From the IMG/VR virus record IMGVR_UViG_3300033991_000293, positions 706 through 64,705 of that record: a stretch of 64,000 nt of DNA, one strand, 5' to 3'. This DNA comes from a virus (Duplodnaviria; Caudoviricetes). The position numbers and the translations under genes were made by a program. The notes below the pieces were generated by a model. That model worked only from the letters and a program-made list of their open reading frames with translations. It was not told the DNA's origin and did no database searches. Shown here piece by piece: positions 20,570-39,177 of the stretch (its first letter is position 1; each line of letters begins with the position of its first letter).

Positions 20570-20574
20570 TGCGC

Positions 20575-21429: not shown

Positions 21430-21441
21430 AGGAAAGCCTCC

Positions 21442-21921
21442 TTACATGTATTCGTCGTGTTCTGCCGTGAGCAGCCCCCCGAAGTCCAGCCGCTCTGCAT
21501 CCACGTCAAACTCTTCGAGAATCCAATGACCACTGCGCCCGATGTGGCGAATGTGGTTGACCATCGCCCCGCGAACCAGTAACACGCATTGCCCGACCAG
21601 TGCAGTGATCACCGCCTCGCGCATAACCCTGATGTTCGAATATCCCTTACCCCTGTCGTAGATCAAGACAGAGACGTAAGCAGTTCGTGTTCTCTCGCGC
21701 TCGCCCTCCCCTTTTTCCCAAACTACGATGGCCAGCACCTGGCCCGCGTTATCCTCATCCTCCCGCCGTGTAGCCTGCGCCGCCTGCAGTGCCTGCGCGC
21801 TCAGTTGGCCGGTTTCCAGGATACCATCCGCGCCCCCGACCACCAGATCACAGACCTCGTCGGAATCCTTCAGTACCGCAAGCGCCCAGGTAGCAAGGTC
21901 ATTGTACTCTGTCTCTGCCAC
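21442..21921 (-). CDS. tail terminator protein (putative)
   Basis: Size and position upstream of the tail tube; VLKDSDEVCDLV N-terminus. Confidence 0.55.
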   Translation of the reverse strand: MAETEYNDLATWALAVLKDSDEVCDLVVGGADGILETGQLSAQALQAAQATRREDEDNAGQVLAIVVWEKGEGERERTRTAYVSVLIYDRGKGYSNIRVMREAVITALVGQCVLLVRGAMVNHIRHIGRSGHWILEEFDVDAERLDFGGLLTAEHDEYM

Positions 21922-21932
21922 AGGCCAGTCCC

Positions 21933-22154
21933 CTAACCGAATTTGTCCAGACTAACGTCCTTTGCTGGCGTACCGGCACCCACCTGTTGCAGGCAGGCCC
22001 CGACCAACCGTAGCAGTTCTATGACTGCCTCCTCCGGCATGTTGATGGACAAGGTGGGCGATTCGCATGCCCCCTGGAGTTTTCCTCCTGCGTCCAGGGA
22101 GATAAAGACGACGATTCTCAGTTCGTTTGCCCTCTGGTCAGTCGCCGACGGCAT
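21933..22154 (-). CDS. hypothetical protein
   Basis: Coupled small ORF. Confidence 0.5.
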   Translation of the reverse strand: MPSATDQRANELRIVVFISLDAGGKLQGACESPTLSINMPEEAVIELLRLVGACLQQVGAGTPAKDVSLDKFG

Positions 22155-22557
22155 CAGGAACCCCTGTCTCGATCTCGCGCAGGGTTACACTGGCCTGCGC
22201 GATCGCAGCCTCAGCCTCGACAGGCCCAATCTCTGTCGTAGCAGGAGGGGAAGCGATCTTTTTGCGTCTGCGCCGACGAGTGGCCGGCACCGCCTCGGCC
22301 TGGGCCGGCACCTGCTCGGCCATCTCCGCAACCATCTCGTAGTGGATGTCCCACCGGTCATCCAGCGCCGATGGGTGAATGGCCACGATCTGACCGATTT
22401 CTGCATCGCCGATCACAACTCGGGCCCCGACCGTGAAGGGCAACGTTCCCATGATCCTATTGGTCACGAACATGCCCTGGCCGAAGTGTGTCTCCGGAAT
22501 CCCACAATCCAGCCGCACTTCGTCCCCTACTGAAATGACCACGTGTCTGTTTGCCAT
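22138..22557 (-). CDS. hypothetical protein
   Basis: RBS GGAGG; in the late operon. Confidence 0.6.
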   Translation of the reverse strand: MANRHVVISVGDEVRLDCGIPETHFGQGMFVTNRIMGTLPFTVGARVVIGDAEIGQIVAIHPSALDDRWDIHYEMVAEMAEQVPAQAEAVPATRRRRRKKIASPPATTEIGPVEAEAAIAQASVTLREIETGVPDAVGD

Positions 22558-27648: not shown

Positions 27649-27681
27649 GGGCAACCTCACGGGTTACACAGGTCAGCCGCA

Positions 27682-28158
27682 TCACCCGCCAGGCCGGTCT
27701 GTCTGCATACGTTTGATGAAATCGCCCATCGCTTTGGTGCCTGCCCTGGATGCCAGGTCACGGGAAAAGTCGACGATCCCGCTCGCGAGTACCCCATAGA
27801 GCAGTCTCACGACCAGCACAACCCATCCTGCCACATCTGATGGGAAGCCCTGGGTGGATTGCCAGAGAACCGCGAACAGGATGCCCAGACCCAGGGAGAT
27901 ATAGCGTAGTGTGTTGCCCTGTACCCCGAACCAGGTCTTGGCGATCTGTACCAAAATGATGATCAACACCATGACGTTGACCCCGCCAATGAACATGTCC
28001 TTCAAGGTTGGCGGCTCCTCCTGCTGGAGCAGGCCGGCACCGGTAGGGGCAGCCCCAGGTAGAGCAGGCCGACTGGCAAGGACCGGGTTGACCACGAACA
28101 GCACCAGAATCAGCAGGCCGACCAGCACCAGGTAGATTTGAAACTTGCGATCCTTCAT
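27682..28158 (-). CDS. holin-like membrane protein
   Basis: Four hydrophobic segments; adjacent to the amidase. Confidence 0.65.
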   Translation of the reverse strand: MKDRKFQIYLVLVGLLILVLFVVNPVLASRPALPGAAPTGAGLLQQEEPPTLKDMFIGGVNVMVLIIILVQIAKTWFGVQGNTLRYISLGLGILFAVLWQSTQGFPSDVAGWVVLVVRLLYGVLASGIVDFSRDLASRAGTKAMGDFIKRMQTDRPGG

Positions 28159-28248
28159 CGAACACCTCCGTTCAGACTGATGAGAAACCGTTACCGATTG
28201 GGAAAGCCCCTTGCCTGGGGGGAGAGTAAACTGCTCGATAGCCACCTC

Positions 28249-28938
28249 CTACAACGCCAATAACTCCTGAATGCGCGCATACAGCGCCGGTTTCCACTTG
28301 CCGCTCTGAGCCACCAACCAACCTGGGCAATCTGTGCCATAGGTTTGTCCAGGTTGACTTTTGGGATAATCCTGGTGCCCGAGTATCTGAGCAGGGGATT
28401 TGACGAGGGGGAGCAGGGGGGATTTGATGGCCCAAACTGCCATCCGCGCAGCAGCATCTAACTGCAGTGCTGAAGGCGGATAGATTGCGCGATTGCCTGC
28501 CAATCCAACTGACAAGTCAAGATTCTCGTGACCCTGGTAATTGTGCCAAACCCCATCTTCCAGGTCACCGCACAGGAGAATCTCGCCCGTCTCGCTGATC
28601 CATACGGTATAGCACGTCGAGGGACGGCCACCTTCTTTCGTGATATACCATTTTGCGAAGTCTGCAGGGGATTGGGAAAGAGTGTGGTGAAAACATAAGG
28701 TCTTGATGTCCTCGACCTGTCTGCGCCACCAGCCGTTTTTCAGCAGCCCTGGGCAGCCGGTTTTCTTGGGCATCAACGCACGGATATCCCGTGTCCAGGG
28801 GAAGGCAACCTCTTCTGGCTTGAAGCAATCTAGCCGCCTTTGTAATTCAGCCGCCATCACCTGGCTTGATATAACCGCTTGTTCGACGGTAACGATCAGT
28901 GCTTGCACCTGGATTGGATCATACCCTGGATCGGTCAT
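28249..28938 (-). CDS. endolysin, N-acetylmuramoyl-L-alanine amidase (Amidase_2)
   Basis: FHHT, WH...N, ILGHQD and T.CPG zinc-amidase motifs. Confidence 0.85.
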   Translation of the reverse strand: MTDPGYDPIQVQALIVTVEQAVISSQVMAAELQRRLDCFKPEEVAFPWTRDIRALMPKKTGCPGLLKNGWWRRQVEDIKTLCFHHTLSQSPADFAKWYITKEGGRPSTCYTVWISETGEILLCGDLEDGVWHNYQGHENLDLSVGLAGNRAIYPPSALQLDAAARMAVWAIKSPLLPLVKSPAQILGHQDYPKSQPGQTYGTDCPGWLVAQSGKWKPALYARIQELLAL

Positions 28939-28948
28939 TGTCTCCCTA

Positions 28949-28990
28949 CAAATAAAAACACGGGCAACCGCTCGACGGTAGCCCGTGTTT
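28949..28990 (-). terminator. intrinsic terminator directly upstream of the endolysin RBS
   Basis: Stem AAACACGGGC/GCCCGTGTTT followed on the - strand by TTATTTG. Confidence 0.65.
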
Positions 28991-29402
28991 CTCTGGTCCT
29001 GGGCCAGTCCCTGCACGTCGGCCAGTGGCCCGTGCAGGGACAGGTATAGATTTCTCTGGAGGGGCAGGAGTCAAACCCTGCAGTGGCCCTGATTCGACGT
29101 CGGCAGGATACTGACACCCTGCCCCTCCCACCTGGGCAGGTCAACCCCCCACCCGCTGTGGGTAGAAGACCCGCCAAAAAATGATAGCGTGTCTCGGCTA
29201 TGGGCAGGGGAAGGAATCCGGCAGCCAACTGGAGTCCGGAAGGGAAATCGGCAGGCCGACTGGCGAGATTCCCCTCCCCTGCCACACCGCAGCATCGGAA
29301 CAAGAAGGAAAAGTGCTGGCCGGAGTCTGGGCCCGCACCCCTCCTCCGGCATGCGCCATTTTCCACGTAAACAGAGACCCAGGAGGGTTAATGGCACATC
29401 TG
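28991..29402 (-). ncRNA. structured late leader / candidate ncRNA
   Basis: No credible ORF; stems 29007-29041, 29058-29128 and 29202-29283 between a perfect promoter and a terminator. Confidence 0.5.
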
Positions 29403-29408
29403 CCCATC

Positions 29409-29437
29409 ATTATACACCGAAAGTACAATCGTGTCAA
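29409..29437 (-). promoter_or_regulatory. sigma70/sigmaA promoter for the lysis-head-tail operon
   Basis: TTGACA-17 bp-TATAAT, exact consensus. Confidence 0.85.
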
Positions 29438-29820
29438 TTAGGACAAGAGTACCATCTGTGCAGGGGAGATTCGAGTCTGGCCAGTGGCCAGCGAAAAGGT
29501 CATACACCCGCAAGGGTGTATAAACTCGGGTAGCACTTTGGCTTTACAGCCATTCAGCGCGATGGTGGGTAGAGTCGAGCAGCCCAGGATGGGGTAAAGC
29601 CGTCAGGTAATGACTACACGAAACTACTGCCTTGACAAGTCAATTCGATAGGGTAACAGGGAATACAGGAAGTGGAGTGGGGTGGGGGAGCCTGCCATCC
29701 AAAGGGGGGAACTCTCCAGGCCGGCATCTGCAATCGCAATGCTCACCATAGCCCAATGTAGGGCATAATCATTTTCCAGGGAATTTTTAGGAGTTTCTTT
29801 ACCAGTTATTAACCTTCGCA

Positions 29821-29829
29821 TGGTATACT
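29821..29829 (+). promoter_or_regulatory. extended -10 promoter for the accessory island
   Basis: TGGTATACT after an AT-rich stretch; no clear -35. Confidence 0.45.
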
Positions 29830-29834
29830 TATAG

Positions 29835-30290
29835 ATAGTAGGATGGTACGCACGAAGGGGAAGCAGCCCCACCGGTAGCCTGGCAAAATAGAGGGAGCCC
29901 CCGCCCGCAGGGGGGAAACCTGACCAGAGTAGCACCAGAACAAACTAGCCGAGTAGAGCGAAGTAAGCCAAGACTAGGGACAAGCACCACGGGAAAAGGG
30001 GCAGGATGAACGGAGAAACCTGAACCCAGGGTGAGACTAACCGACGAGTAAGCCGAAAAGCGAAACTCAAAGCCAAAGCCCGACAGTGAAAATCTGGCAT
30101 AGGGAGCGAGTCGAAACCTGGGAAGGTGAGACTGGCCGACGAAACGCAAGGTTGGTGAGAAACTCCTGGATCACAGCGAAAGCGAAAAGACCTGGCGGAG
30201 AAAAACAAGAGGGTTAAAAGGCAAAGGGTACTACCCCACCAGCAGCAGGCCAACAAGAGATTGACAGGTTGCTGGTGCAGCAGTACCGCA
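29835..30290 (+). ncRNA. candidate large structured ncRNA / leader
   Basis: No + ORF; strongly A/G-rich and U-poor; recurring GCGAAA and GTGAGA loops; 5' GTAGGATGGTAC can pair with 3' GTACTACCCCAC. Confidence 0.5.
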
Positions 30291-30328
30291 CTGAATGGAT
30301 TCACATAACTCCACAGGAGGATTTGACG

Positions 30329-30532
30329 ATGGACGAGCAGCAGAGAATCAAGGAACTGGAAGCCGCCCTGAGTGAACTGGAAAGCGCCTCGGTAAACTTC
30401 GGTTTGGCAGTGATCGAAACGCTGAAGTTTGACCTTGCTGGCCAGGCTTACCTGCAGAAGGGTTACTTGCCCAACTTGACCCGCGCAGTTCGCAAGGCCC
30501 GCCTGACCCTGGGCCTGGATCATTCCGAATAG
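30329..30532 (+). CDS. hypothetical protein (island gene 1)
   Basis: RBS CAGGAGG. Confidence 0.7.
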   Translation: MDEQQRIKELEAALSELESASVNFGLAVIETLKFDLAGQAYLQKGYLPNLTRAVRKARLTLGLDHSE

Positions 30533-30534
30533 AA

Positions 30535-30616
30535 TAAGGTAGGGGGAGAGTGAACTCCCCCCTTACCACTAGCCCAGGCCACCGCCTGGGTTAGTGGTAG
30601 GGAGACACAGAATCCC
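30535..30616 (+). repeat. four-arm hairpin element E1
   Basis: Overlapping stems AGGGGGAG/CTCCCCCC and CCTTACCACTAGCCCAGGC/GCCTGGGTTAGTGGTAGGG. Confidence 0.6.
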
Positions 30617-30812
30617 TGGTGCAGGAGTAAGCCACGATAGCCCTGCACTGGATACCCTGAGCAAAGCACGAACCGACGTGCAAGGGTTTGCCTCAACCCT
30701 GGACGGGCAAGGGGAGTGGGATTGGAGTCCACGAGATTGTGAGGGAGCCTGGCCAGGCCGAGTGGCCGAAAGCCTGGTCAGGCGATAGCAACCAAAACCC
30801 CAGGAGGATAAA

Positions 30813-31223
30813 ATGTACCCCGCAATTGACCTGAACAAAGTGATTGGCTTGACCGACGAGGAACGCGCTCTGGCAGCAGGTATCATCAACAAACAGACAG
30901 GTTGCCTGCGCGCAAGCAAGCCGAAGGTCACCTTCCGCCGTACAGGGAAGTATGACCAGTTTGGGAACGCAGAAGTCGATGCCGACCTCATAACGGAAGG
31001 CGGAGACACCGCCTACATTTGGCGCATGGTAGCCTTTTTCACGAGTAGCAACCGGCAGCACCAGTGCATGCCCTGCACTGCAGATTTTGACCTGAACGGT
31101 AACACTGCCGAACGGATGGCACGCGCCAAGTACCTCGACACCATTGTCGACAGGATTGTGGACAGTATCCCAAAGAACGAGTGGCACGGTGTACGCCGTT
31201 GGGCCCATGCCTTTGGGTACTAG
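30813..31223 (+). CDS. hypothetical protein (island)
   Basis: RBS CCCAGGAGGA; 136 aa. Confidence 0.8.
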   Translation: MYPAIDLNKVIGLTDEERALAAGIINKQTGCLRASKPKVTFRRTGKYDQFGNAEVDADLITEGGDTAYIWRMVAFFTSSNRQHQCMPCTADFDLNGNTAERMARAKYLDTIVDRIVDSIPKNEWHGVRRWAHAFGY

Positions 31224-31229
31224 CAGAGA

Positions 31230-31353
31230 CAGGAGGGGATGGTACCCATCCAGGAGGGTGGGACCAGCCATTACCATCCCCCCCTGCTGTAACCCCAAAC
31301 CCACCCAGGGATTGGGGTTACAGCAGGGAACTGCAAGCGAGTAAAGCCCTGCT
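31230..31353 (+). repeat. four-arm hairpin element E2
   Basis: GGGGATGGTA/TACCATCCCC; CCCTGCTGTAACCCCA/TGGGGTTACAGCAGGG; downstream CCCTGCT. Confidence 0.8.
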
Positions 31354-31376
31354 AACATACCCCAGGAGGAAGTACA

Positions 31377-31865
31377 ATGAAAACCGTGATGATTCTCTTC
31401 CGGCATTTTGGCGAAGTTTGCTACACGCCCAAGTCCCCCACCCGCGAGTGGTTGGGTGATGCCGACGACGTAGACCTGACTGAGCAGAAGGATTGCATCC
31501 TCTCGAGTGATGATTTCAGGCCGGTCAAGGTGAACAAGTGGGATGTCCAGCCCGTGGAAGTCCCTGACTGGATGGAGGGTGACGACTACGCCGCTAACGC
31601 CTTCAAGTGGGAAAGCCTCTGGACAACCTCTGGAGCCAAGACCTTCCCCGAAGATTGGCAGGTTTACCTGGCGCTCTACGTCGACGAACCGAAAGAACGT
31701 CATGCCCTGGCCAAACTGCTCGCGGTCAAGAACTTCCGCTCGGAATTCCGCCAGAGTCTGCGTGACCAGGTAGTCGCCTTCATCGAGACCCCGCCCGACC
31801 AGCGCAAGTATGACAAGCCGTTATCCTGGAAGCAGATGAGTGCCCTTCTGCGATGGGAACGGTAG
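31377..31865 (+). CDS. hypothetical protein (island)
   Basis: RBS CCCAGGAGGA; 162 aa. Confidence 0.8.
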   Translation: MKTVMILFRHFGEVCYTPKSPTREWLGDADDVDLTEQKDCILSSDDFRPVKVNKWDVQPVEVPDWMEGDDYAANAFKWESLWTTSGAKTFPEDWQVYLALYVDEPKERHALAKLLAVKNFRSEFRQSLRDQVVAFIETPPDQRKYDKPLSWKQMSALLRWER

Positions 31866-31875
31866 CAACCGCCGA

Positions 31876-32008
31876 CAGTGGAGGGGGGATGGCCATACCA
31901 TCCTCCCCTGCTGTATCTCCAGAACCTGCACGGTCACCCAGGAATTGCCCTGGCTGACCACCCCAGGCCCTGGAGATACAGCAGGGGAACAACTGAGCAG
32001 ACCCTGCT
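31876..32008 (+). repeat. four-arm hairpin element E3
   Basis: CCCCTGCTGTATCTCCAG/CTGGAGATACAGCAGGGG stem shared with E5. Confidence 0.8.
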
Positions 32009-32034
32009 AGATTCTACCCCAGGAGGAAAGTACA

Positions 32035-32748
32035 ATGAAAGCCCATTATTTCTACAATGTCACCGTTGACAACCCCGACAAGTATGCCAAGTATGCCCAT
32101 CTGACGCTCGAGATTCGCAGCAGCACGAACAGCGGTCAGCCCCTGGCAACCTTAGCCTGGCAGTGCAACCGGATGGACGACACCAGCACCGCCCAGGAAG
32201 GGACCTGGTTGAAGGGATGGTCAGATTGGTATGGTTGCGACATTCGTGTCGAGGGACGGTCATTGAGTGACATCCAGGAGTCCGCAGCCGCCGTTCGTAG
32301 TGCATTGGGAAGCCAGGAGCCCTGGCAGATGCCCGATGTCGCTACAATTCTGCTGCGCTTGGCACGGAAGAAGGCCACCTTCACCGAAGTTCTGTATGAT
32401 GCCCGCCTGCATCAGTATGTGCCAATCGACGAACTCCAGCCGGAAGGGTATGAAGCCTGGCTGGATGACGCCAAAGCGATGGGCAGGTCATACCCGACTA
32501 CATCGGTACTCGCTCGCCATCAGGATGAAGCGCAACGCAAGATGGTCATCGCCCTGGCTGAAGGCGGATATGATGCAGTCTTGGAGGAATTCGTGAAGGC
32601 AGGGAAACCCGTATACCGTAGTTACGAGAAAGCCCCTGCCGATCCTCGCCATGCCATCGCCCGCCTGGGCATCACCAAGTCGCCGCAGATGGATATGGAT
32701 CAGGCCATGCACATGCTCGACACCATCGCCGAGTCCATAGAGGAGTAG
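32035..32748 (+). CDS. hypothetical protein (island)
   Basis: RBS CCCAGGAGGA; 237 aa. Confidence 0.8.
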   Translation: MKAHYFYNVTVDNPDKYAKYAHLTLEIRSSTNSGQPLATLAWQCNRMDDTSTAQEGTWLKGWSDWYGCDIRVEGRSLSDIQESAAAVRSALGSQEPWQMPDVATILLRLARKKATFTEVLYDARLHQYVPIDELQPEGYEAWLDDAKAMGRSYPTTSVLARHQDEAQRKMVIALAEGGYDAVLEEFVKAGKPVYRSYEKAPADPRHAIARLGITKSPQMDMDQAMHMLDTIAESIEE

Positions 32749-32762
32749 ATGCTCCTCCCACA

Positions 32763-32849
32763 GGTTGAGCAGGAGGGAACAGGAGCCCTCCTGCCCAACC
32801 AAAACCCCAGGTAACACAACCTGGGGTTTTGGTTGGGATATACCCAATC
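32763..32849 (+). repeat. four-arm hairpin element E4 (divergent sequence)
   Basis: GGTTGAGCAGGAGGG/CCCTCCTGCCCAACC; CCCAACCAAAACCCCAGG/CCTGGGGTTTTGGTTGGG; TTGGG/CCCAA. Confidence 0.7.
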
Positions 32850-32886
32850 CGATTGATAAGTCAAGTCAGTAGCCCAGGAGGAAAGT

Positions 32887-33177
32887 ATGACCAGACAGGA
32901 ACTGATCCAGCGCATCAATGCAAGCGCAAGCGCCTTCCTCGGATTCCAAACTCAGATGGCCGGTCTGTCCAGCAAGAACAAAGCCCACCTCGAAGTGATG
33001 GCAACCGCCTACGAGAGAATGGTGGAACTCCGACAGAAAGCCGAAACAGTGCTCGGCCAGTATAGTAACATCGACAGGTTGGGATGGGATTTCTATCCGG
33101 AGCAGAAACCGGAAGAAGTCACAATCGCTGAACAATTGGCCAAGCAAGCCCTCACGATATGGGACACCAGATTCTAA
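32887..33177 (+). CDS. hypothetical protein (island)
   Basis: RBS CCCAGGAGGA. Confidence 0.75.
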   Translation: MTRQELIQRINASASAFLGFQTQMAGLSSKNKAHLEVMATAYERMVELRQKAETVLGQYSNIDRLGWDFYPEQKPEEVTIAEQLAKQALTIWDTRF

Positions 33178-33194
33178 TCCAGGAGGATTACACA

Positions 33195-33626
33195 ATGAAA
33201 GATCATACGTTCATCTGGCCAGCAGGGACATTGGCCCGCTGTAACAGGGGATGCCCGAACGCGCAGCCCCTGCTCCGCGAAGTCGAAGCCCTGGTGACCA
33301 ACAAGCGCCATGCTCGCATCGCCGAACCCATCATGCTGGACTGCGGTCATCTGGATTGGCATGACATCTATCGCGCCGACAACGTCGAGCAGACCTGGCC
33401 TGTGGACCCCGCCCCTAACATTCTCATCGCCGATGGGTACGCCGCCTTCCAGACTGACTACTGGAAGGTCACCAACGACAGTGGGGAATTTTGGGGCGAA
33501 GTGATGGCCATCAACCTGGCTGATGCCCGATACCAGTTTGAGGAACGCCTCAAGCAGCAGCAGAATTATGATGGCCTCGACCTGCTCCGCCAGGGGGGAT
33601 TCACCTTCAAGATTCACCAATATTGA
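33195..33626 (+). CDS. hypothetical protein (island)
   Basis: RBS CCAGGAGGA; C..GC...CGH. Confidence 0.75.
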   Translation: MKDHTFIWPAGTLARCNRGCPNAQPLLREVEALVTNKRHARIAEPIMLDCGHLDWHDIYRADNVEQTWPVDPAPNILIADGYAAFQTDYWKVTNDSGEFWGEVMAINLADARYQFEERLKQQQNYDGLDLLRQGGFTFKIHQY

Positions 33627-33635
33627 CCGCCCAGG

Positions 33636-33725
33636 GTAGGGGGGATGGCCACCGCACCATCTCCCCTGCTGTATCTCCAGAACCTGCGCCCAGGCCCTGG
33701 AGATACAGCAGGGAACTGACCCTGC
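33636..33725 (+). repeat. four-arm hairpin element E5
   Basis: Same central stem as E3, followed by AACTGACCCTGC. Confidence 0.8.
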
Positions 33726-33752
33726 GCAAACTATAGACAGGAGGAAAAGCCA

Positions 33753-33983
33753 ATGGTCACCTATCAGGAACGCCAAGTGTTTATAGTCCACGTCATCCAG
33801 CGCAAAACACGGTACTCGCCTGCGGTAGAACCACCAGCCGAAGTCGAAGTGCAGTTTGTGAATGACGACGGCTCCCTCATCCAGGGGGAACGGCCTCGCT
33901 TGGTACTCGTCACCGAACTGGATGAGACTATCGAGGGTGAGATTCAACTCAACGTTGACACCGCCGATGTCGTGCAAGGATGA
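33753..33983 (+). CDS. hypothetical protein (island)
   Basis: RBS CAGGAGGA. Confidence 0.7.
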   Translation: MVTYQERQVFIVHVIQRKTRYSPAVEPPAEVEVQFVNDDGSLIQGERPRLVLVTELDETIEGEIQLNVDTADVVQG

Positions 33984-33990
33984 AGGACAG

Positions 33991-34067
33991 GCAGGGGGGA
34001 TGGCCAGCATCCCCCCTGCGGTAGACCCAGGTCAACCGACCTGGGTCTACCGCAGGGAAAATACCTG
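33991..34067 (+). repeat. hairpin element E6
   Basis: GCAGGGGGGATG/CATCCCCCCTGC then CCCTGCGGTAGACCCAGGTC/GACCTGGGTCTACCGCAGGG. Confidence 0.85.
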
Positions 34068-34092
34068 AAGTTTTGCCTGCGAGTTTCGTTAT
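34066..34092 (+). promoter_or_regulatory. phage-sigma-type promoter motif 1
   Basis: TGAAGT-15 bp-CGTTAT. Confidence 0.65.
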
Positions 34093-34130
34093 ACTGGTAC
34101 GCAGCATCTTATAGACAGGAGGAACAAAAA

Positions 34131-34622
34131 GTGGATGAGATACAGATTGGTGCATGGTTTCTGTTCGTAGGCGAGAATCCCGCTTACCTCAAGGATCAGC
34201 CGGTTTTGCTCTGCGGAGTCCGCAAGGCATGGGCCAACGAGGATTCTGACGAAGCAGACATCCGCCACGACGTCAACCTCGCCAAAGTGGGGGGGATGGA
34301 AGTGGGCGACCGCGCATTTATCAAGATGTGGCTCCAGGCGAAACAGCGCCCTTCTTGGATCGAAGATGAATGTGCAGCCAGTGACCTGCAGCCCCTGCCG
34401 CAGGAACAGTGGCCCGACCGGAACCCGCAACCACTGATCACCTACCACGCTGTGGATACCGACGACAACGTCTTGGCAACCATCGAAGCCTACAACGTCA
34501 AGCGCGCCGAGACCCGCCTGTCGGAGTGGTTGCTCATGCCCGACAAGCGTCCGCAGTATGCAGCCTGGGCAAAGGCAAACTATAAGATTCAGCCCATGCC
34601 TGCATGCGACTGCGCAGTCTAG
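34131..34622 (+). CDS. hypothetical protein (island)
   Basis: RBS CAGGAGGA, GTG start. Confidence 0.75.
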   Translation: MDEIQIGAWFLFVGENPAYLKDQPVLLCGVRKAWANEDSDEADIRHDVNLAKVGGMEVGDRAFIKMWLQAKQRPSWIEDECAASDLQPLPQEQWPDRNPQPLITYHAVDTDDNVLATIEAYNVKRAETRLSEWLLMPDKRPQYAAWAKANYKIQPMPACDCAV

Positions 34623-34627
34623 CAGCC

Positions 34628-34716
34628 CAGGGGGAGAATGCCCCGCGCAGTATTCTCCCCCTGCGGTAGACCCAGGTCAGCCGACCTGAGTCTACCGCAG
34701 GGAACCTGAACCCTGC
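34628..34716 (+). repeat. four-arm hairpin element E7
   Basis: CAGGGGGAGAATG/TATTCTCCCCCTG; core shared with E6 and E8. Confidence 0.85.
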
Positions 34717-34744
34717 ACGATACCATATCCCAGGAGGAATAAGC

Positions 34745-35377
34745 ATGTGTAATCAAACTGTCCACATTGGCCCCGTGATCTATTTCACGGGCAACTTCGC
34801 CCGCGCTCGCATCGTCCGCCAGGATGTCAAGGGCAGGCCAATCTGCATCGAATTGGTGACCGCCAGTGGTCAGGCGATGGTCACTGAGTATGATGAGGAA
34901 GCCATGACCCTGTGGGATTTCCTGTGCAGGGATAGCATCGATGGCTCTGCCATCCTGCTGCATCATCAGGCAGAGACACAGGCCGAATTCGACGAGATAG
35001 TCCGCGACGAAGCAGCGCAGGAACATCCGCCCCTCGGCCAGCGCGATCACTATACCGCCGACGACGTCATTACCTACTTCCAGGTCAGCCGTGCGCTTGA
35101 TAAGGTTAACCGTGAAGTCGATACGCTGATCAGTGAGGAATGGGTTACACCCACCGAACTGAAGGTCTGGAGTGTAGTCGCCCACGCCCTGGGTGATGCC
35201 AGCGATCGCATCAAGATTGTCGACTGGGACCGCGACCGTGTCGAAGTTCATCGTTTCGCAGGGGAAACTCCACATGGTCATTGGCAGGAGTGGATGCCTG
35301 ATCAGGAAGCAGCCGACCTGGTTGCCACCGCTCTCAATGACGCCGCATACCAGAAGGCTTACTGGGCCGACGATTGA
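34745..35377 (+). CDS. acidic hypothetical protein (island)
   Basis: RBS CCCAGGAGGA; 210 aa. Confidence 0.8.
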   Translation: MCNQTVHIGPVIYFTGNFARARIVRQDVKGRPICIELVTASGQAMVTEYDEEAMTLWDFLCRDSIDGSAILLHHQAETQAEFDEIVRDEAAQEHPPLGQRDHYTADDVITYFQVSRALDKVNREVDTLISEEWVTPTELKVWSVVAHALGDASDRIKIVDWDRDRVEVHRFAGETPHGHWQEWMPDQEAADLVATALNDAAYQKAYWADD

Positions 35378-35387
35378 GCCAGCACAG

Positions 35388-35466
35388 GCAGGGGGGATGG
35401 CCAGCATCCCCCCTGCGGTAGACCCAGGTCAGCCGACCTGAGTCTACCGCAGGGAACTGACCCTGC
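35388..35466 (+). repeat. four-arm hairpin element E8
   Basis: Near-identical to E6 over about 70 bp. Confidence 0.85.
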
Positions 35467-35493
35467 ACGATATCAGTCCAGGAGGAAAATACC

Positions 35494-35838
35494 ATGAAAC
35501 CGATTGAAGTCGAAGCCTTACTCGCCCCCTACTTCAAGAAGAAGATAGGGCAGAAGGTCTGCCGGAGAGTCCGCACGGCCAATGATCTGGCCTTCCAGGT
35601 TTGGGCCCGTGACTATCAGGCCGAAGTCCTGGCGGTAGATGGTAATACCGCCTACGTGCAACTGACGTCGATTGACCTGGCACCATCGGAGAGCCATCGC
35701 GCAGGAAGTGACCGTGTGCTTGGGGATTACCAGATTGACTTGACCGGCATGGCCGGTCTAGACCCATTCTGGCGGAAACTCCTGGGGTTTGCCGACCCGC
35801 AGTGGGCGAAACTCATCACCCCGTCAGGCAACATCTAG
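35494..35838 (+). CDS. hypothetical protein (island)
   Basis: RBS CCAGGAGGA. Confidence 0.75.
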   Translation: MKPIEVEALLAPYFKKKIGQKVCRRVRTANDLAFQVWARDYQAEVLAVDGNTAYVQLTSIDLAPSESHRAGSDRVLGDYQIDLTGMAGLDPFWRKLLGFADPQWAKLITPSGNI

Positions 35839-35848
35839 GAGGAAACCC

Positions 35849-36370
35849 ATGATTACCATTGCCGATCTACTGGATGCGCTCAAGGACATTGAGTGCACGG
35901 CCACCCACTTTGCCCTGGCAGTGGCGACACAAGGAAGCAGGCCCGCCAATGCAGGAACAAGTCAGCCGGTCATTGATGAACAGCGCAAGCGCCTCGACGA
36001 CCTGTTGGTCAGCCTGAATACCAAAGTCCGCCCCTGCCTGGATGAAGCGCAGCAGCAGCCGCCTTTCGATGTCATCGCCGCCCTGGAGTGGGCGACTAAC
36101 CGCCTCGCCGCTGTGATCACCACCATGCCCGATGCCACCGAGTATTATGATCGTACCTGCCTGGCCAAAGCCCTGGAAGTACTCACGCATGCCAAGCATA
36201 CCAGGGACACCAACTTGCTGGCAGCCGCCCGCGCAGCCCTGGCCCTGTGGGATAAGTATGGCCTGGGGGATGAGGATAGTGAGTCAGAACCTGTCTATCA
36301 TATCCTCAAGGACGCTGTGGAGGGTTATGACTATTCGCGCTCGAAGCACGACAGGCCCTGCCCCTTCTAG
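35849..36370 (+). CDS. hypothetical protein (island)
   Basis: RBS AGGAGGA. Confidence 0.7.
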   Translation: MITIADLLDALKDIECTATHFALAVATQGSRPANAGTSQPVIDEQRKRLDDLLVSLNTKVRPCLDEAQQQPPFDVIAALEWATNRLAAVITTMPDATEYYDRTCLAKALEVLTHAKHTRDTNLLAAARAALALWDKYGLGDEDSESEPVYHILKDAVEGYDYSRSKHDRPCPF

Positions 36371-36635
36371 CGCCCAGGCCGGCACCACCATACCTGGGGG
36401 AAATGAGGAATCCCCCAGGTATGGCCTGGGGAATATCATTACCTTCCGTCTGCACGACGGCAGACTGGTCACCGGAGAAATCAGTACCATGAATCAGGAT
36501 GCCAGTGAACCTCAGTATCACGTCAGGATCGAACACGATTCAATGTACTCCAGTGGCTATTGGGTATGGGAACAGGAAGTGGTCAGCCAGGGAGTGCAAC
36601 TTTCCCTCTTTCCGCCAGATGCAGATGTGCTATAA
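36327..36635 (+). CDS. SH3/KOW-like hypothetical protein
   Basis: RBS GGAGG; RYGLGNIITF...G.I...YHV...WVWEQEV pattern. Confidence 0.6.
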   Translation: MTIRARSTTGPAPSSAQAGTTIPGGNEESPRYGLGNIITFRLHDGRLVTGEISTMNQDASEPQYHVRIEHDSMYSSGYWVWEQEVVSQGVQLSLFPPDADVL

Positions 36636-36672
36636 ACAATCCCCCCACCCAAGATGGGTGGGGGGATTGTTT
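36634..36672. terminator. bidirectional terminator between the island and the portal operon
   Basis: AAACAATCCCCCCACCC/GGGTGGGGGGATTGTTT perfect stem. Confidence 0.8.
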
Positions 36673-36733
36673 GCGTCCCTGCGACCCGATCTCCCCCACC
36701 GATGTGGGGGAGCCAATGTGGTACAATGGAGGG

Positions 36734-36952
36734 TTACTCAGCCGGCACCGCCTCCGCCCCCTGTTCTTCACGAACCAGCAACACGCCCCTCGGCTCCAGC
36801 GCCGCCTGGATCACCGCCCAGGTCAGGATACCATCGCCACCGGTCTTACCTTTGATGACCACGACGATGTGCAGCCCGGGCCCCAGGCCCGCCAGGCGAT
36901 TCAGTATGTCGTTCAGGGGGGAGCCAGGTTTGCCCTGCCGGTCATTGTTCAT
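36734..36952 (-). CDS. hypothetical protein
   Basis: ATGA-coupled to the portal stop. Confidence 0.5.
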   Translation of the reverse strand: MNNDRQGKPGSPLNDILNRLAGLGPGLHIVVVIKGKTGGDGILTWAVIQAALEPRGVLLVREEQGAEAVPAE

Positions 36953-39177
36953 AGCCAAACCCAGGCCCCATTTGTCAATCGTTCAAGGTGACATCGGCAT
37001 CGACCGTTACATTCGGTCCCCTGGCCAGGTAGGATACCGCCAGTGAAGGCGATCAGCGCATCGATAGATGTGTATTCGCGCCCAGGGGGATTTGCCCCAA
37101 AGATGGGACACATTCGGCAGTGTTTGGCAATGACGTCCAGTACCCATCGCACGGGCGATGGGTATCCTTGTTCCAAATCATCCAGCCGCCCGCGCTCAAT
37201 GGCGCCTGACCAAATCGAGTGCCAGACCTCGCCCGCGTATAACTCCGCCCGTGCAAACCCCTGCGTAGCCGCCTCGACCGCCTGGTGCACCAGAATCCAT
37301 GCCTCGTCCTCGCGCCCCGCTTTGAGCAATAGCAGGATCGCCGCGATCTGTCCTTCCAATTCCCCTTTGATGTCCCCGAATAGACTTGACTTACCAGCCG
37401 GATTGGTTACAGCCAGGCGACCATCGCCCCCGTACCCAATCCAGGCATCTGCCCTCGCGATCTCCGACCGCAACGCCTGCTGGATTCTGGCATCCCCTGT
37501 TGGGGGACCGAACCCCAACCAGAATGCAGCAGCCAAATCTAAGGCAGACTTTTCACGAAACAGCAGGAGCCCCACCAGGAGCAAATCGTCCAACTTGCTG
37601 CGCAGAGTCACCTCGTCCACGCCAGTCCCCAGGCCCGCCACTTCAGTGGACAGTTGATCAGCCCAGGCCGAGAGATTCTGCCTCTGTGCCTCGGCATTGG
37701 CATCGACGAAAGCCACGTACCGCGCAGGCCGATCTTCAGGGGCAGCAGGCCCAAAATGCTCAGCGCCTCGCGCCAGGAATTGCTCGCGCCGCCTGACCGG
37801 CACCCGTATCCTCGAGTATCCCTCGCTCTCCGTACCTGGCTCTCCCTCGCCGCTTTCAGGTTTGGGTTGCTCTTCCTCAGCGCCACCCGCCCGCCGACCT
37901 TCATCATTGCCTTCATCACCGACCGGCTCCTCCTCTTCCTCTGGCGCCTCGGGCATCCCCGGCACCTGCGCCCGCAGGAAATTCTCAGTGGGCATGTCCA
38001 TCGAGAAAGCCCCGGCACCAGATAGTGCAGTGATATACTGCCCAAGTCTCTGTAAATCCAGTGCCCTGGGTGATGTATGTGTCAGAGTGGGGTAGCCGGT
38101 CAGCCCTGGCCAGGGATTGAAACTGAACAGGTAGGGGATGGCATAGCGATTCAACTCGTCAGTGATGATCTGCAGGTATGCCTCGACCGCCAGCGCGAAA
38201 GATTCCTGGAGGGTTTGCGCCAGGGAACGAGTCCCTACCTCGCGCAGGCCCAGAAGGAGCCATTGGGCCAGAATCGACCTGGCCATTTCTGAATCCTTGC
38301 GTATAATCGTGTCCGACATCGTCCGATCAATCGTTCCCTCCGGACCCCCTAATTCCAAGTCCCAGGAGTGGGGGATGTATGACCCCATCATCCTGTCCTC
38401 GTAGATGGCCTGGACTAATTCCTGCGCCCGCTGTTCGTCTGATACCTCACCCTCTGCTACCTCAGCCCTCGCAGTCGCCCCATCTGGCAGTTTGAGCAGG
38501 GGGAAGCCTGCCCATCGCCGGTACAGGCCGATACCCTCGATCTGTTCCAGTCGCCGCTTGTATTTGTATGGCCGAACGGCAGGCCGGAAGATCGACAGGC
38601 CCTCCGGATTGTCTCCCTCCCTCGACGTCCGAAACAGCAGAGATTCATTCAGGGGGATAAAGATGACATTGCCCGTTTTGATCTGGTACTGCCACAAACC
38701 CAGGATGTCGCCCGATTCCTCGTCAAACTCCCAGTGATCCAGGGTAAGTGGAGACCGGAAGGCAATCTTCCGAAAGCCGATTAAATCGTCGTCGAACTGG
38801 CTCTTGTTTTTGCCCTTCTGGCCTCTGCGTCTCTTCATGACCATGTGGAAGTAAGTCCACCCATAGACAAACATCAGGCAGGCATCGGCGATCAGGTCAT
38901 TGAATGAGTGGGATGTGTCGCTGAAGGCCGACCATGCAAAAGTGGCAGCCTCTTCATCCCGCGCAGAAGGCCCGCCAGGCAGACAACTCCACTGCACGCG
39001 CCGGATTGGGAGCGTTAGGACGAGATACATCGCAATCCCTGTCGGATCTTGCGTCCGGATCTCGTCGAAAACCCGATAGCCCAATTGCCCGCGCAGAGTA
39101 ACGTCCGGCTCCACCATGACGACCCCGCCCCACTGCTGCAAGCCAGTGGAGCCCAACTCTTTAAATGGTGATGACAT
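36949..39177 (-). CDS. portal protein (DUF935/Mu gp29-like) fused to a MuF-like head morphogenesis domain
   Basis: ELGSTGL, YGW.YF, NPEG.SIFR and DSEMARSILAQWL portal motifs; C-term WVL...HCRMC...PGQGTECNGRCRC. Confidence 0.85.
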   Translation of the reverse strand: MSSPFKELGSTGLQQWGGVVMVEPDVTLRGQLGYRVFDEIRTQDPTGIAMYLVLTLPIRRVQWSCLPGGPSARDEEAATFAWSAFSDTSHSFNDLIADACLMFVYGWTYFHMVMKRRRGQKGKNKSQFDDDLIGFRKIAFRSPLTLDHWEFDEESGDILGLWQYQIKTGNVIFIPLNESLLFRTSREGDNPEGLSIFRPAVRPYKYKRRLEQIEGIGLYRRWAGFPLLKLPDGATARAEVAEGEVSDEQRAQELVQAIYEDRMMGSYIPHSWDLELGGPEGTIDRTMSDTIIRKDSEMARSILAQWLLLGLREVGTRSLAQTLQESFALAVEAYLQIITDELNRYAIPYLFSFNPWPGLTGYPTLTHTSPRALDLQRLGQYITALSGAGAFSMDMPTENFLRAQVPGMPEAPEEEEEPVGDEGNDEGRRAGGAEEEQPKPESGEGEPGTESEGYSRIRVPVRRREQFLARGAEHFGPAAPEDRPARYVAFVDANAEAQRQNLSAWADQLSTEVAGLGTGVDEVTLRSKLDDLLLVGLLLFREKSALDLAAAFWLGFGPPTGDARIQQALRSEIARADAWIGYGGDGRLAVTNPAGKSSLFGDIKGELEGQIAAILLLLKAGREDEAWILVHQAVEAATQGFARAELYAGEVWHSIWSGAIERGRLDDLEQGYPSPVRWVLDVIAKHCRMCPIFGANPPGREYTSIDALIAFTGGILPGQGTECNGRCRCHLERLTNGAWVWL

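What the first reader, a model, noticed from the sequence alone, without database searches (positions are those of the whole stretch)
30535..35466. Cassette-like array: orphan genes each preceded by a four-arm alternative-hairpin element
Seen: eight intergenic elements (30535, 31230, 31876, 32763, 33636, 33991, 34628, 35388) start just after a stop codon and precede a CAGGAGGA RBS. Arms a-b-c-d allow a:b plus c:d, or a long b:c stem, through a shared block (usually CCCTGC/GCAGGG). E6/E7/E8 share a ~50-bp core and E3/E5 share another, while E1 and E4 keep the topology with unrelated sequence, so structure rather than sequence is conserved. They lack U-tracts and are not plain terminators. Analogues: T7 early RNase III sites, IncN CUP repeats, plasmid leading-region ssDNA hairpins and integron attC (no integrase seen). 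Inference: an undescribed system that processes, switches or shuffles single-gene cassettes, probably early anti-defence or host-takeover genes. This is the best candidate novel system in the window, together with the upstream ncRNA.
Basis: partly seen in the sequence, partly recalled or inferred. Interest (0 to 1): 0.85.

Follow-up and report, generated by a model that had tools for sequence, protein, structure and literature searches.

The report
Hairpin modules between phage orphan genes
A phage of probable Chloroflexota hosts separates a dozen genes of unknown function with conserved two- or three-hairpin RNA-type modules that probably punctuate the messenger and also let genes be lost, gained and reordered, much like elements already described in T4-like and mycobacterial phages.

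Summary
All eight intergenic elements exist at the stated places. Each runs from a stop codon to a CAGGAGGA ribosome site and folds far better than shuffles (z -5.5 to -10.5). Each has a short G/C hairpin (H1), a 16-21 bp hairpin (H2) and a shared block that allows 1:2+3:4 or 2:3 pairing. None has a U-tail, whereas the array ends in a U-tailed terminator.

Relatives carry the same architecture, with compensatory changes and a co-varying block (CCCTGC versus CCCTAC). Gene order and content differ between relatives. H2 copies are homogenised within each genome.

The window is a near-complete siphovirus. The array is an opposite-strand insert between the portal and the lysis/protease genes, and some relatives lack it.

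My best reading (0.45) is non-terminating intercistronic mRNA punctuation: an RNase III-type target plus end-protecting hairpins. As repeated DNA, the same modules would give homology for cassette shuffling.

Described analogues exist: PeSLs of T4-like phages and SAS/ESAS of cluster K mycobacteriophages. No integrase or attC signature was found.

A surplus of A.C over G.U mismatches argues against a simple plus-strand RNA reading and is unexplained. This is a new variant of a known kind, of moderate interest.

The parts
29821..29829 (+). Candidate array promoter, an extended -10 (TGgTATACT), followed by a conserved TATAGATAGTAGG
   Evidence: Read by eye. The equivalent position in L008, L009 and L020 has TATGAT or TATAAT. 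In L009 the scan scores it TAGACA-17-TATAAT, 11 of 12. The window scan did not list it.
29838..30322 (+). Long T-poor, purine-rich leader upstream of the first cassette
   Evidence: Composition is A 0.35, G 0.31, T 0.105. It is conserved in position in L008, L009 and L020, with a shared island at 30079-30099.
30323..36635 (+). Array of 12 co-oriented genes: g0 30323-30532, g1 30813-31223, g2 31377-31865, g3 32035-32748, g4 32887-33177, g5 33195-33626, g6 33753-33983, g7 34131-34622, g8 34745-35377, g9 35494-35838, g10 35849-36370, g11 36327-36635
   Evidence: Pfam matched 0 of 11 scanned. PHROGs gave 1 weak hit of 10. NCBIfam had 0 over cut-off and PADLOC 0 of 10. g11 was not scanned. Ten of the genes have tblastn relatives in L008.
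30533..30812 (+). E1: H1 about 30538-30567, H2 30564-30599, sharing TACC, plus further hairpins to 30783
   Evidence: z -5.45. The ortholog follows g0' in L008 (IG2) and precedes g1 in L024. The covariance model hits 30537-30612.
31224..31376 (+). E2: H1, H2 31282-31328, segment 4 CCCTGCT 31347-31353
   Evidence: z -7.78. Its H2 is 91% identical to L008_IG1, which also follows g1, with a C-G to G-C swap.
31866..32034 (+). E3: H1, H2 31904-31988 with an inserted apical hairpin, segment 4 32002-32008
   Evidence: I5; z -8.46. The ortholog L008_IG3 is 85% identical, with a T-A to A-T swap.
32749..32886 (+). E4: H1 GCAGGAGGG/CCCTCCTGC, H2 32794-32837 (contains UUUU in its 3' arm), 3:4 helix GGTTGGG/CCCAATC
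   Evidence: z -7.95. The ortholog L008_IG4 has compensatory changes. The T run is shown.
33627..33752 (+). E5: H1, H2 33662-33715, segment 4 33720-33725
   Evidence: ddG 0.3; z -6.99.
33984..34130 (+). E6: H1 33991-34019, H2 34014-34057, segment 4 CCTGCG 34076-34081, then a longer spacer with a TATACT box before the SD
   Evidence: z -10.54. The promoter-like box was seen only by eye and is not listed by the scan. The ortholog L008_IG6 has TATAAG at the same place.
34623..34744 (+). E7: H1 34628-34663, H2 34659-34702 (one C.A mismatch), segment 4 34711-34716
   Evidence: z -9.07. Its H1 is orthologous to that of L008_IG7. ARAGORN's odd 'tRNA-???' at 34650-34740(-) is this element.
35378..35493 (+). 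E8: H1 35388-35416, H2 35411-35454, segment 4 35461-35466. It is a mosaic whose 5' half resembles E6 and whose 3' half resembles E7.
   Evidence: (D1: 96% to E6 over 76 nt; I13/I14: arms identical to E7; D14), plus (z -8.53).
36634..36672 (.). Bidirectional terminator-type hairpin closing the array, convergent with the portal gene. It has a G/C core with A/T-rich outer pairs, so either transcript ends in AUUGUUU.
   Evidence: (I18). The scan lists it on the - strand only. The equivalent in L009 is listed on both strands.
29409..29437 (-). Divergent consensus sigma-70 promoter (TTGACA-17-TATAAT) for the amidase/protease/capsid genes
   Evidence: 12 of 12 positions. The same arrangement occurs in L009 and L020.

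Best explanation
The elements are intercistronic structured modules of one accessory operon. That operon is a moron-like, hyperplastic array of genes of unknown function. It is inserted on the opposite strand between the portal gene and the lysis/protease/capsid genes of a siphovirus whose relatives are seen in Chloroflexota genomes.

Shown:
- Each module is H1 (about 8-14 bp, G arm then C arm), abutting H2 (16-21 bp), abutting a 5-7 bp H3.
- H3 is formed by the 3' base of H2 (segment 3) and a downstream copy of the 5' base of H2 (segment 4).
- The four segments can pair as 1:2+3:4 or as 2:3 (often with 1:4), at nearly equal predicted energy.
- The module starts 3-14 nt after the stop codon and ends 9-15 nt before the SD.
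- It lacks a U-tail, whereas U-tailed hairpins close the array.
- It is conserved with compensatory changes, is about as conserved as the genes or more so, and occurs only in these arrays.

Inferred mechanism:
- In the + strand mRNA the modules do not terminate transcription. They punctuate the polycistronic transcript.
- The roughly two-turn H2 is a substrate for host RNase III or a similar double-strand nuclease.
- After a cut, the upstream piece keeps H1 extended by 1:2 as a 3' protective hairpin.
- The downstream piece folds 3:4 as a 5' hairpin at a fixed distance from the SD, so each cistron gets its own stability and translation.

Also inferred: as repeated DNA, the modules and the invariant CCAGGAGGA sites give homology for gene conversion and for loss, gain and reordering of gene-plus-3'-module units.
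For: Structure and significance.

Covariation:
- On alignment A5 (11 of the elements), 91.4% of cells pair and 9 of 20 pairs change on both sides. 0 of 500 shuffles reach this, and slid controls pair at 30-45%.
- On the model-fitted alignment of 29 sense hits, 520 of 576 cells are Watson-Crick and 12 of 20 pairs have at least 2 pair types. That alignment leans towards the structure.
- The 3:4 helix is kept with different sequence in E4, L020, L012 and, around an inserted hairpin, in L009.

Geometry: stop to H1 is 3-14 nt in 16 of 17 elements. H2 is 16-21 bp in 16 of 17. Segment 4 to SD is 9-15 nt in 14 of 16.

Not terminators:
- No + strand terminator-like site was found in 29000-37200.
- 24 of 29 elements have no T-rich window.
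- U-tailed hairpins sit at the array ends in the window, L009, L020 and L041.
- There is a single upstream promoter and no sigma-70 match on the + strand inside the 8 elements.

Composition: unpaired positions are A 43%, C 30%, G 18%, U 9%.

Host enzymes: RNase III and Rho genes are present in both Chloroflexota genomes that hold portal relatives.

Distribution: model R1 gives 29 full-length sense hits (window 8, L008 9, L020 7, L009 3, L024 2). All lie in arrays. There are none elsewhere in the window and none in 19 other loci.

Shuffling:
- Gene order is g0 g1 g2 g3 g4 g5 g6 g7 g8 g9 g10 g11 in the window.
- It is g1 g0' g2 g3 g5 g6 g7 g8 X X g9 g10 g11 in L008.
- It is g1 a b g2 c g3 g7 d e f g6 h g9 g10 in L020.
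- L010, L015 and L016 have no array.
- H2 copies are 95-100% alike among E6, E7 and E8 and 84-96% alike among L008 IG5, 6, 7, 9 and 10, but only 74-80% alike across genomes.
- E8 is a mosaic.
- One low-depth contig joins 33974 to 34657, skipping g7.
Against: - No RNA data exist, so cleavage, ends and conformers are unobserved.
- Mismatches in the stems argue against simple selection for + strand RNA stability. Of 39 isolated 1x1 mismatches, 23 are A.C (a wobble on the - strand), 5 are G.U and 11 are other.
- In the fitted H2 alignment there are 24 A.C against 8 G.U. Only 1 of 20 H2 pairs varies on one side only.
- The - strand folds more stably in 31 of 34 intergenic regions, although that strand is G+T-rich.
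- Synonymous sites show no matching bias (A 0.14, T 0.17).
- Perfect palindromes with double changes can also be kept by DNA-level template switching or conversion, without any RNA function.
- E4 has a U run in its H2 3' arm and could terminate.
- L009_IG1 holds a 12-of-12 sigma-70 promoter after its hairpins, and E6 has a TATACT box, so some modules look like terminator-promoter composites.
- H2 at 16-21 bp is at the lower limit for RNase III. That limit is recalled, not tested here.
- The host assignment rests on two 45-50% identical portal relatives in metagenome-assembled genomes.
Confidence: 0.45

Rival explanations
1. These are terminator/attenuator-plus-promoter composites in the strict PeSL sense. 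The hairpins stop or damp transcription after each cassette, and internal promoters restart it, so each cassette is a moron with its own signals.
For: PeSL stem-loops with polyG then polyC tracts cut reporter expression about as much as rrnB T1 in E. coli (PMC2839356, section 13, read). H1 has the same G-then-C make-up. L009_IG1 carries TTGACA-17-TATAAT after its hairpins. E6, L008_IG6, L020_IG6 and L020_IG11 carry TATA-type boxes, seen by eye. The H2 of E4 has UUUU in its 3' arm.
Against: 0 of 8 window elements has a sigma-70-like site on the + strand. 24 of 29 elements have no T-rich window. The same phages use U-tailed hairpins where termination is expected. With one upstream promoter and efficient terminators, 10 or more downstream genes would be silent.
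Confidence: 0.2
2. This is a four-segment translational coupling switch. A ribosome terminating on the upstream cistron covers segment 1, so 2:3 forms and segment 4 is released next to the SD. Without upstream translation, 1:2+3:4 (or 1:4) holds. Initiation on each cassette therefore depends on translation of the one before.
For: Segment 1/H1 starts 3-14 nt after the stop codon in 16 of 17 elements. Segment 4 ends 9-15 nt before the SD in 14 of 16. The two pairing schemes are within 3 kcal/mol in 16 of 20. The block co-varies in all segments.
Against: Segment 4 does not overlap the SD, so any effect on initiation would be indirect. The ribosome footprint length is recalled, not tested. Near-equal energies partly follow from re-using one block. 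There are no expression data.
Confidence: 0.1
3. These are selfish palindromic repeats (REP- or MITE-like) that spread and homogenise in the non-coding gaps of the array. They would have no function for the phage beyond being tolerated.
For: E6 and E8 are near-identical, and H2 is homogenised within each genome. Stems are perfect with almost no wobble intermediates.
Against: Orthologous modules stay with the same upstream gene across phages whose genes are 55-76% identical at nucleotide level, and they show compensatory changes: E2/L008_IG1/L020_IG1, E3/IG3, E4/IG4, E1/IG2. Spacing to the stop codon and SD is fixed. There are no copies outside the arrays and no transposase.
Confidence: 0.1
4. 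These are recombination sites that fold in single-stranded DNA and act like integron attC sites. The bottom strand of each module folds and is cut and joined by an unidentified recombinase, moving gene-plus-3'-site cassettes.
For: The unit that moves is a gene plus its 3' module. Order and content vary between relatives. The strand opposite the genes has the wobble-compatible mismatches (23 A.C versus 5 G.U), as the recombining strand of attC is the bottom strand (recalled).
Against: 0 of 50 scanned proteins is an integrase or recombinase over its cut-off. Both attC core boxes occur in only 3 of 29 elements, and in E4 they are in the wrong order. Stems are near perfect, without regular extrahelical bases. 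The g4 indel is bounded by SD repeats, not hairpins. The fixed spacing to the SD points to expression.
Confidence: 0.05
5. These are binding sites for a phage or host protein, in the manner of operators or stoperators. The protein would block or time transcription through the array.
For: The sites are repeated, oriented and intergenic. The apical CCAGG...CCTGG is shared by most H2 copies.
Against: The arm sequences differ completely between families while complementarity is kept. That pattern selects for pairing, not for a sequence read by a protein. Arms of 16-21 bp are long for an operator.
Confidence: 0.05

Closest known systems
PeSLs (promoter-early stem-loops) of T4-like phages RB49/phi1, PST and nt-1 (PMC2839356: abstract and section 13 read; PMC4122927: abstract read)
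   Same: Both are small repeated modules that fill the gap from the stop codon of one ORFan to the SD of the next in hyperplastic regions. Both have stable stem-loops with polyG then polyC tracts. In both, indels and replacements between relatives are bounded by the modules.
   Different: Every PeSL is built round a consensus sigma-70 early promoter with an AT-rich upstream region, and its stem-loop acts as a terminator. Here 0 of 8 elements has such a promoter, the elements are T-poor, there are two to three abutting hairpins with a shared block, and there is no U-tail. Mini-circles were not tested. The host phylum and phage type differ.
SAS/ESAS of cluster K mycobacteriophages (PMC3203893 and PMC12699233: passages found by term search read)
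   Same: Both have a conserved SD-containing motif just before the start codons of a subset of non-structural genes, all in one orientation. In about half of the SAS sites it is preceded by an imperfect 17-bp inverted repeat with a short spacer, whose consensus differs between sub-lineages. The function is still stated as unverified in 2025.
   Different: The sequences differ (GGGATAGGAGCCC versus CCAGGAGGA). ESAS is a single inverted repeat, with no H1, no segment-4 copy and no alternative pairing described. It has not been linked to cassette reordering. The host is an actinobacterium.
RNase III processing sites between the early genes of phage T7 (recalled, no paper read)
   Same: Both are hairpins of about two helical turns between cistrons of one transcript, without terminator function. 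Cleavage leaves a 3' hairpin on the upstream message.
   Different: T7 sites have a characteristic internal loop and shared sequence. Here stems are near perfect or carry one A.C mismatch. Cleavage is not shown here.
Integron attC sites (recalled, no paper read)
   Same: Both involve co-oriented, mostly promoterless cassettes, each a gene plus a 3' imperfect palindrome. Structure is conserved more than sequence, and the bottom strand folds better.
   Different: There is no integrase, no R''/R' core boxes (both present in only 3 of 29 elements), no regular extrahelical bases, and a fixed spacing to the SD.
REP/BIME intercistronic stabilisers of enterobacterial operons (recalled, no paper read)
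   Same: Both are U-less palindromes between co-transcribed genes that protect upstream mRNA.
   Different: REPs are host-wide repeats with a transposase-like partner. These modules are confined to one phage locus.

Membership tests
PeSL | Lies between the stop codon of one ORFan and the SD of the next, in a variable region | tested here: met
   8 of 8 elements. The region is absent from L010, L015 and L016 and variable in L008, L009 and L020.
PeSL | Consensus sigma-70 early promoter in each element, with an AT-rich upstream tract | tested here: not met
   0 of 8 elements has a + strand promoter-like site. The elements hold 14.7% T. One relative's element (L009_IG1) has a 12-of-12 promoter.
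PeSL | Stable stem-loop acting as a terminator or attenuator | tested here: inconclusive
   The stem-loops are very stable, but they have no U-tail. Termination cannot be measured here.
PeSL | Recombination between elements gives indels, replacements and mini-circles | tested here: inconclusive
   Order and content differ between relatives, H2 is homogenised within genomes, E8 is a mosaic, and one low-depth contig skips g7. Circles could not be tested.
SAS/ESAS (cluster K mycobacteriophages) | 13-bp motif GGGATAGGAGCCC next to start codons | tested here: not met
   The motif here is CCAGGAGGA. It is analogous, not homologous.
SAS/ESAS (cluster K mycobacteriophages) | Imperfect 17-bp inverted repeat with a 4-13 bp spacer just upstream of the motif, in one orientation, in non-structural genes | tested here: met
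   H2 is 16-21 bp in 16 of 17 elements and lies 9-15 nt plus segments 3/4 upstream of the SD. All are on the gene strand. This is a likeness of form only.
Intrinsic (rho-independent) terminator | G/C-rich hairpin followed directly by a U-tract | tested here: not met
   There is no + strand site in 29000-37200. After H2 come AACTG, AACCTG, AAAATA, ATATAC and GGGAGA. The possible exception is E4, whose U run lies inside its H2 3' arm.
Integron attC | Tyrosine-recombinase integrase IntI beside the array | tested here: not met
   0 of 50 window proteins matched. Small ORFs were not all scanned.
Integron attC | Core sites RYYYAAC ... GTTRRRY at the two ends | tested here: not met
   Both are present in 3 of 29 elements, and in E4 they are in the wrong order.
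RNase III processing site (T7 type) | Double-stranded stem of about two turns within a transcript | tested here: met
   H2 is 16-21 bp in 16 of 17 elements. This is predicted, not probed.
RNase III processing site (T7 type) | Cleavage by RNase III in vivo or in vitro | not testable with these tools
   No RNA run holds the sequence. RNase III genes are present in 2 of 2 candidate host-lineage genomes.
Rfam families | Score at or above a family's gathering threshold | tested here: not met
   There are 0 matches in the window at gathering score. At E up to 1 there are only sub-threshold hits to eukaryotic miRNA-precursor and snoRNA models.

The most novel reading that the evidence does not exclude
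Each module is a portable, bistable four-segment RNA adaptor that travels with its gene. Segments 1-4 always pair, either as 1:2+3:4 or as 2:3+1:4. The switch is flipped by a ribosome terminating 3-14 nt upstream, or by a cut in the two-turn H2. This resets the structure 9-15 nt before the next SD. Any cassette dropped into the array is thereby insulated, stabilised and translationally coupled without a promoter or terminator of its own. The same block supplies the homology, possibly on the folded bottom strand, by which cassettes are exchanged. That would be an integron-like cassette logic in a phage, achieved without an integrase.
Probability: 0.12. Interest if true: 0.8.

Novelty: new variant of a known kind. 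Interest (0 to 1): 0.5.

Why it matters
Variable arrays of small unknown genes are where phages keep much of their counter-defence and host-takeover repertoire. How such genes are plugged in and expressed is poorly understood outside T4-like phages.

Here a distant lineage, siphoviruses linked to Chloroflexota, has reached a similar design: gene plus structured 3' module plus invariant ribosome site. It adds a distinctive alternative-pairing block, clear covariation, and direct evidence that the units are reordered and homogenised.

If the RNA function is confirmed, the modules would be compact, promoter-free insulator and stabiliser parts. They could also help explain the still unassigned ESAS repeats of mycobacteriophages.

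If the function proves to lie only at DNA level, the array is a clean natural case of palindrome-driven modular shuffling.

Tried and rejected
- Rfam: nothing at gathering score over the whole window. At E up to 1 there were only sub-threshold eukaryotic miRNA-precursor or snoRNA models on the hairpins.
- tRNA: ARAGORN's 'tRNA-???' with a 4-base anticodon at 34650-34740(-) is E7 and is rejected as a false positive.
- RNA evidence: no RNA holder is listed among the sequencing runs, so ends and cleavage could not be examined.
- Laid contigs: assembly contigs of the source sample break at E6, E7 and E8, which is a repeat effect. Parts without cover in X3-X5 are not interpreted. The X5 joint 33974>34657 has depth 2.9 in one contig and is treated only as a hint.
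- The exact 20-mer of H2 in viral contigs gave 0 loci.
- The pattern GCAGGG..CCCTGC..CCAGGAGG in viral contigs gave 17 loci, about the chance number by my own rough estimate. None has the H1+H2 arrangement when folded.
- g1 relatives in metagenome contigs: 17 loci. Of the 14 I folded, only L024 carries these modules. I skipped L025, L026 and L038, which are the contigs already held as L018, L019 and L022. The others show ordinary single hairpins or none.
- The strand test by energy and wobble pairs was meant to prove + strand RNA folding. It points the other way or is confounded by the T-poor composition, and is left unexplained.
- MAFFT alignment of whole elements (A3) misaligned H1 and segment 4, so it was not used for counts.
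- For A5 I left out E1, E2, E3, E4, L008_IG2, IG3, IG4 and IG6, L020_IG1, IG5, IG6, IG8 and IG11, and all L009 and L012 elements, because of length differences.
- g1 fold: the model is confident (pLDDT 90.8), but no PDB match reached E <= 0.001, so there is no functional lead.
- The anti-defence guess for the genes found no support and no test.
- Supplementary files of the PeSL and SAS/ESAS papers were not opened. Their figures of element alignments and reporter data may bear on the comparison.

Full report
Context. The window is bases 706-64705 of a 64,705-base IMG/VR virus record rated complete. Pfam places a Mu-type portal at 36949-39177(-) and a gpA-type large terminase at 39187-40938(-). 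It also places a Mu-like prohead protease at 26038-27660(-), a tape-measure-like protein at 11037-17186(-) and an amidase (endolysin) at 28249-29016(-). The + strand carries ParA, FtsK-like, DnaD/DnaA_N-like, radical-SAM and methylase genes.

The finding lies in a block of twelve + strand genes (30323-36635). This block sits between two blocks of - strand structural genes. A consensus sigma-70 promoter at 29437..29409(-) points away from the array. An extended -10 (TGgTATACT, 29821-29829) followed by a 485-nt T-poor leader points into it. An 18-bp hairpin with A/T-rich outer pairs closes the array at 36634-36672.

The observation. Their cores fold with z-scores of -5.5 to -10.5, and 0 of 200 shuffles did as well in any of the eight. 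Of 23 hairpins with at least 11 pairs in the window, 11 lie in this 6 kb. All 7 with at least 18 pairs lie between 31.2 and 36.7 kb.

Each element has three parts.
- H1 is a G-arm/C-arm hairpin.
- H2 is a long hairpin that abuts H1.
- A short block, usually CCCTGC, recurs at three places: the end of H1's 3' arm (which is also the start of H2's 5' arm) and again after H2. Its complement GCAGGG occurs before H1 and at the end of H2.

Forcing 3:4 or forcing 2:3 gave energies within 3 kcal/mol in 16 of 20 elements for which I could name the segments. The 2:3 form often closes with 1:4.

In 17 measured elements of the window and relatives the geometry is tight.
- H1 starts 3-14 nt after the stop codon in 16 of 17.
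- H2 has 16-21 pairs in 16 of 17.
- Segment 4 ends 9-15 nt before the SD in 14 of 16.

A strict automatic test found an exact downstream copy of the H2 base 6-mer in 8 of 29 elements against 0.31 expected. There are no U-tails.

Relatives. A portal search gave ten viral loci. In L010, L015 and L016 the portal gene is followed directly by the protease gene, so the whole block is an insert. L008 (portal 79% identical), L009 (58%) and L020/L023 (about 62%) have the array, with the same divergent promoters and closing terminator. L012 has a short version with two modules of unrelated sequence.

A portal profile found two relatives in genome contigs. Both are in Chloroflexota metagenome-assembled genomes, one of them Anaerolineales. 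That one, L041, has at the same locus an opposite-strand array with a single 12-bp U-less hairpin between genes and U-tailed terminators at unit ends. Both genomes encode RNase III and Rho.

Conservation of structure. Orthologous modules keep pairing through double changes. Examples are CCCC/GGGG to CCGC/GCGG in E2 versus L008_IG1, and TCTCCAG/CTGGAGA to TCACCAG/CTGGTGA in E3 versus IG3. E4 versus IG4 shows several more.

On alignment A5 (11 elements), H2 is 91.4% paired and 9 of 20 pairs change on both sides. 0 of 500 shuffles reach this, and slid controls pair at 30-45%. In L020 the block is CCCTAC/GTAGGG in segments 2, 3 and 4. In E4 it is CCCAAC/GTTGGG with CCCAATC downstream, and in L012 it is CCCCC/GGGGG. 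In L009 an extra hairpin sits between segments 3 and 4, yet the 3:4 complementarity is kept.

Between the window and L008 the modules are 59-72% identical, and the genes are 54.5-76% identical. A covariance model built on A5 found 29 full-length sense-strand hits in 313 kb of held sequence: window 8, L008 9, L020 7, L009 3 and L024 2. All are in arrays. The other 22 hits are the antisense sides of the same palindromes. Nineteen other loci had none. The 11 input sequences match by construction, and one L020 hit lies in a stretch I had called coding.

Cassette dynamics.
- Gene order differs between the window, L008 and L020.
- The module stays with the gene upstream of it. E1 follows g0 in both the window and L008. 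The GTAACCCCA-type H2 follows g1 in the window, L008 and L020.
- g4 is present only in the window, and its indel is bounded by two CCAGGAGGA sites.
- H2 copies are more alike within a genome than between orthologous places. Among E6, E7 and E8 they are 95-100% identical. Among L008 IG5, 6, 7, 9 and 10 they are 84-96% identical. Across genomes they are 74-80% identical. In contrast, E2/IG1 (91%) and E3/IG3 (85%) look vertical.
- E8 equals E6 on its 5' side and E7 on its 3' side.
- One low-depth contig from another study joins 33974 to 34657, skipping g7.

These data show ongoing exchange among modules. That the modules cause the rearrangements is inference.

What they do. Because the same phages place U-tailed hairpins at array ends, the U-less modules are unlikely to be efficient terminators. 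One upstream promoter serves most of the array. I therefore favour mRNA punctuation.
- H2 would be a double-strand nuclease target.
- H1 plus 1:2 would form a 3' cap for the upstream piece.
- 3:4 would form a 5' hairpin at a set distance from the SD.

The A/C-rich, U-poor unpaired positions fit a designed + strand fold.

One finding counts against this reading. Stem mismatches are mostly A.C rather than G.U (23 versus 5; 24 versus 8). Synonymous sites show no matching bias. This would fit folding of the bottom strand, or true mismatches being wanted in the RNA. I cannot decide between these.

Some modules may be terminator or promoter composites: the U run in E4, the TATACT box in E6 and the consensus promoter in L009_IG1.

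Comparison with known systems. PeSLs share the place, the G/C stem-loop, the ORFan context and the shuffling, but they are defined by a sigma-70 promoter that is absent here. SAS/ESAS share the conserved SD motif plus an upstream 17-bp inverted repeat and still have no proven role. attC membership fails on the integrase and on the core boxes. Rfam has no family for the elements. The specific four-segment form was found only in this small clade.

Verdict. This is a real, conserved and lineage-restricted variant of the intergenic stem-loop modules known from other phages. The evidence for structure and for cassette turnover is good. There is no direct evidence for the molecular mechanism.

Noticed in passing
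window 29838-30322 (+): A 485-nt leader lies between the array promoter and g0. It holds only 10.5% T and is purine-rich. It is conserved in position in L008, L009 and L020, with a shared island (CCCGACAGTG.AAATCTGGC, 30079-30099) and repeated GAAACCTG-like units.
   Followed up: partly
window 28249-29437 (-): A perfect TTGACA-17-TATAAT promoter (29437..29409) is followed by a leader of several hundred nt that carries two strong hairpins (29004-29044 and 28956-28990). The second hairpin has A/T tails. An amidase (endolysin) gene follows. This could be a controlled terminator ahead of the lysis/late genes.
   Followed up: no
window 27682-36672 versus L010, L015, L016: The relatives that lack the array also give no hit for the amidase or for the 27682-28245 gene, and there the portal gene abuts the protease gene. 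So the insert seems to be a two-armed block: the array one way and lysis genes the other.
   Followed up: partly
window 30813-31223 (g1): g1 is not a strict orphan. It has 69 relatives in the protein collection, all unnamed and without Pfam domains, some of them in unrelated AT-rich phage contigs. The AlphaFold model is confident (pLDDT 90.8), but no PDB fold matches at E <= 0.001. His83 is invariant and Cys85 nearly so.
   Followed up: partly
window 32870-33195: g4 exists only in the window. Its presence or absence relative to L008 is bounded by two copies of CCAGGAGGA, so the conserved ribosome site itself may act as microhomology for indels.
   Followed up: partly
whole window: CCCAGG occurs 134 times on the + strand against 69.9 expected from a Markov model. 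CCAGG/CCTGG also sit at the apex of most H2 stems and inside the SD context.
   Followed up: no
window 34650-34740 (-): ARAGORN calls a 'tRNA-???' with a four-base anticodon on element E7. This is a false positive caused by the three abutting hairpins.
   Followed up: yes
window 45051-46499, 52656-53336, 55242-55742, 62306-62725: Genes here include a ParB_N-methylase fusion, a radical-SAM (Fer4_12) protein, a second methylase fragment and a weak DarA_C-like protein. Together they suggest DNA modification or anti-restriction functions outside the array.
   Followed up: no
L041 (Anaerolineales genome contig), reverse complement of 12101-22196: At the same portal-protease locus this contig holds a different opposite-strand array. 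One near-identical 12-bp U-less hairpin (GGGCCGGCCCC...) follows each small gene, and U-tailed terminators plus TATAAT promoters sit at unit ends.
   Followed up: partly
window 255-286 and 61107-61140 (+): Single 14-bp U-less hairpins sit in other parts of the + strand; 61107-61140 starts 4 nt after an AAA ATPase gene. Intercistronic hairpins may not be confined to the array, although the four-segment form is.
   Followed up: no
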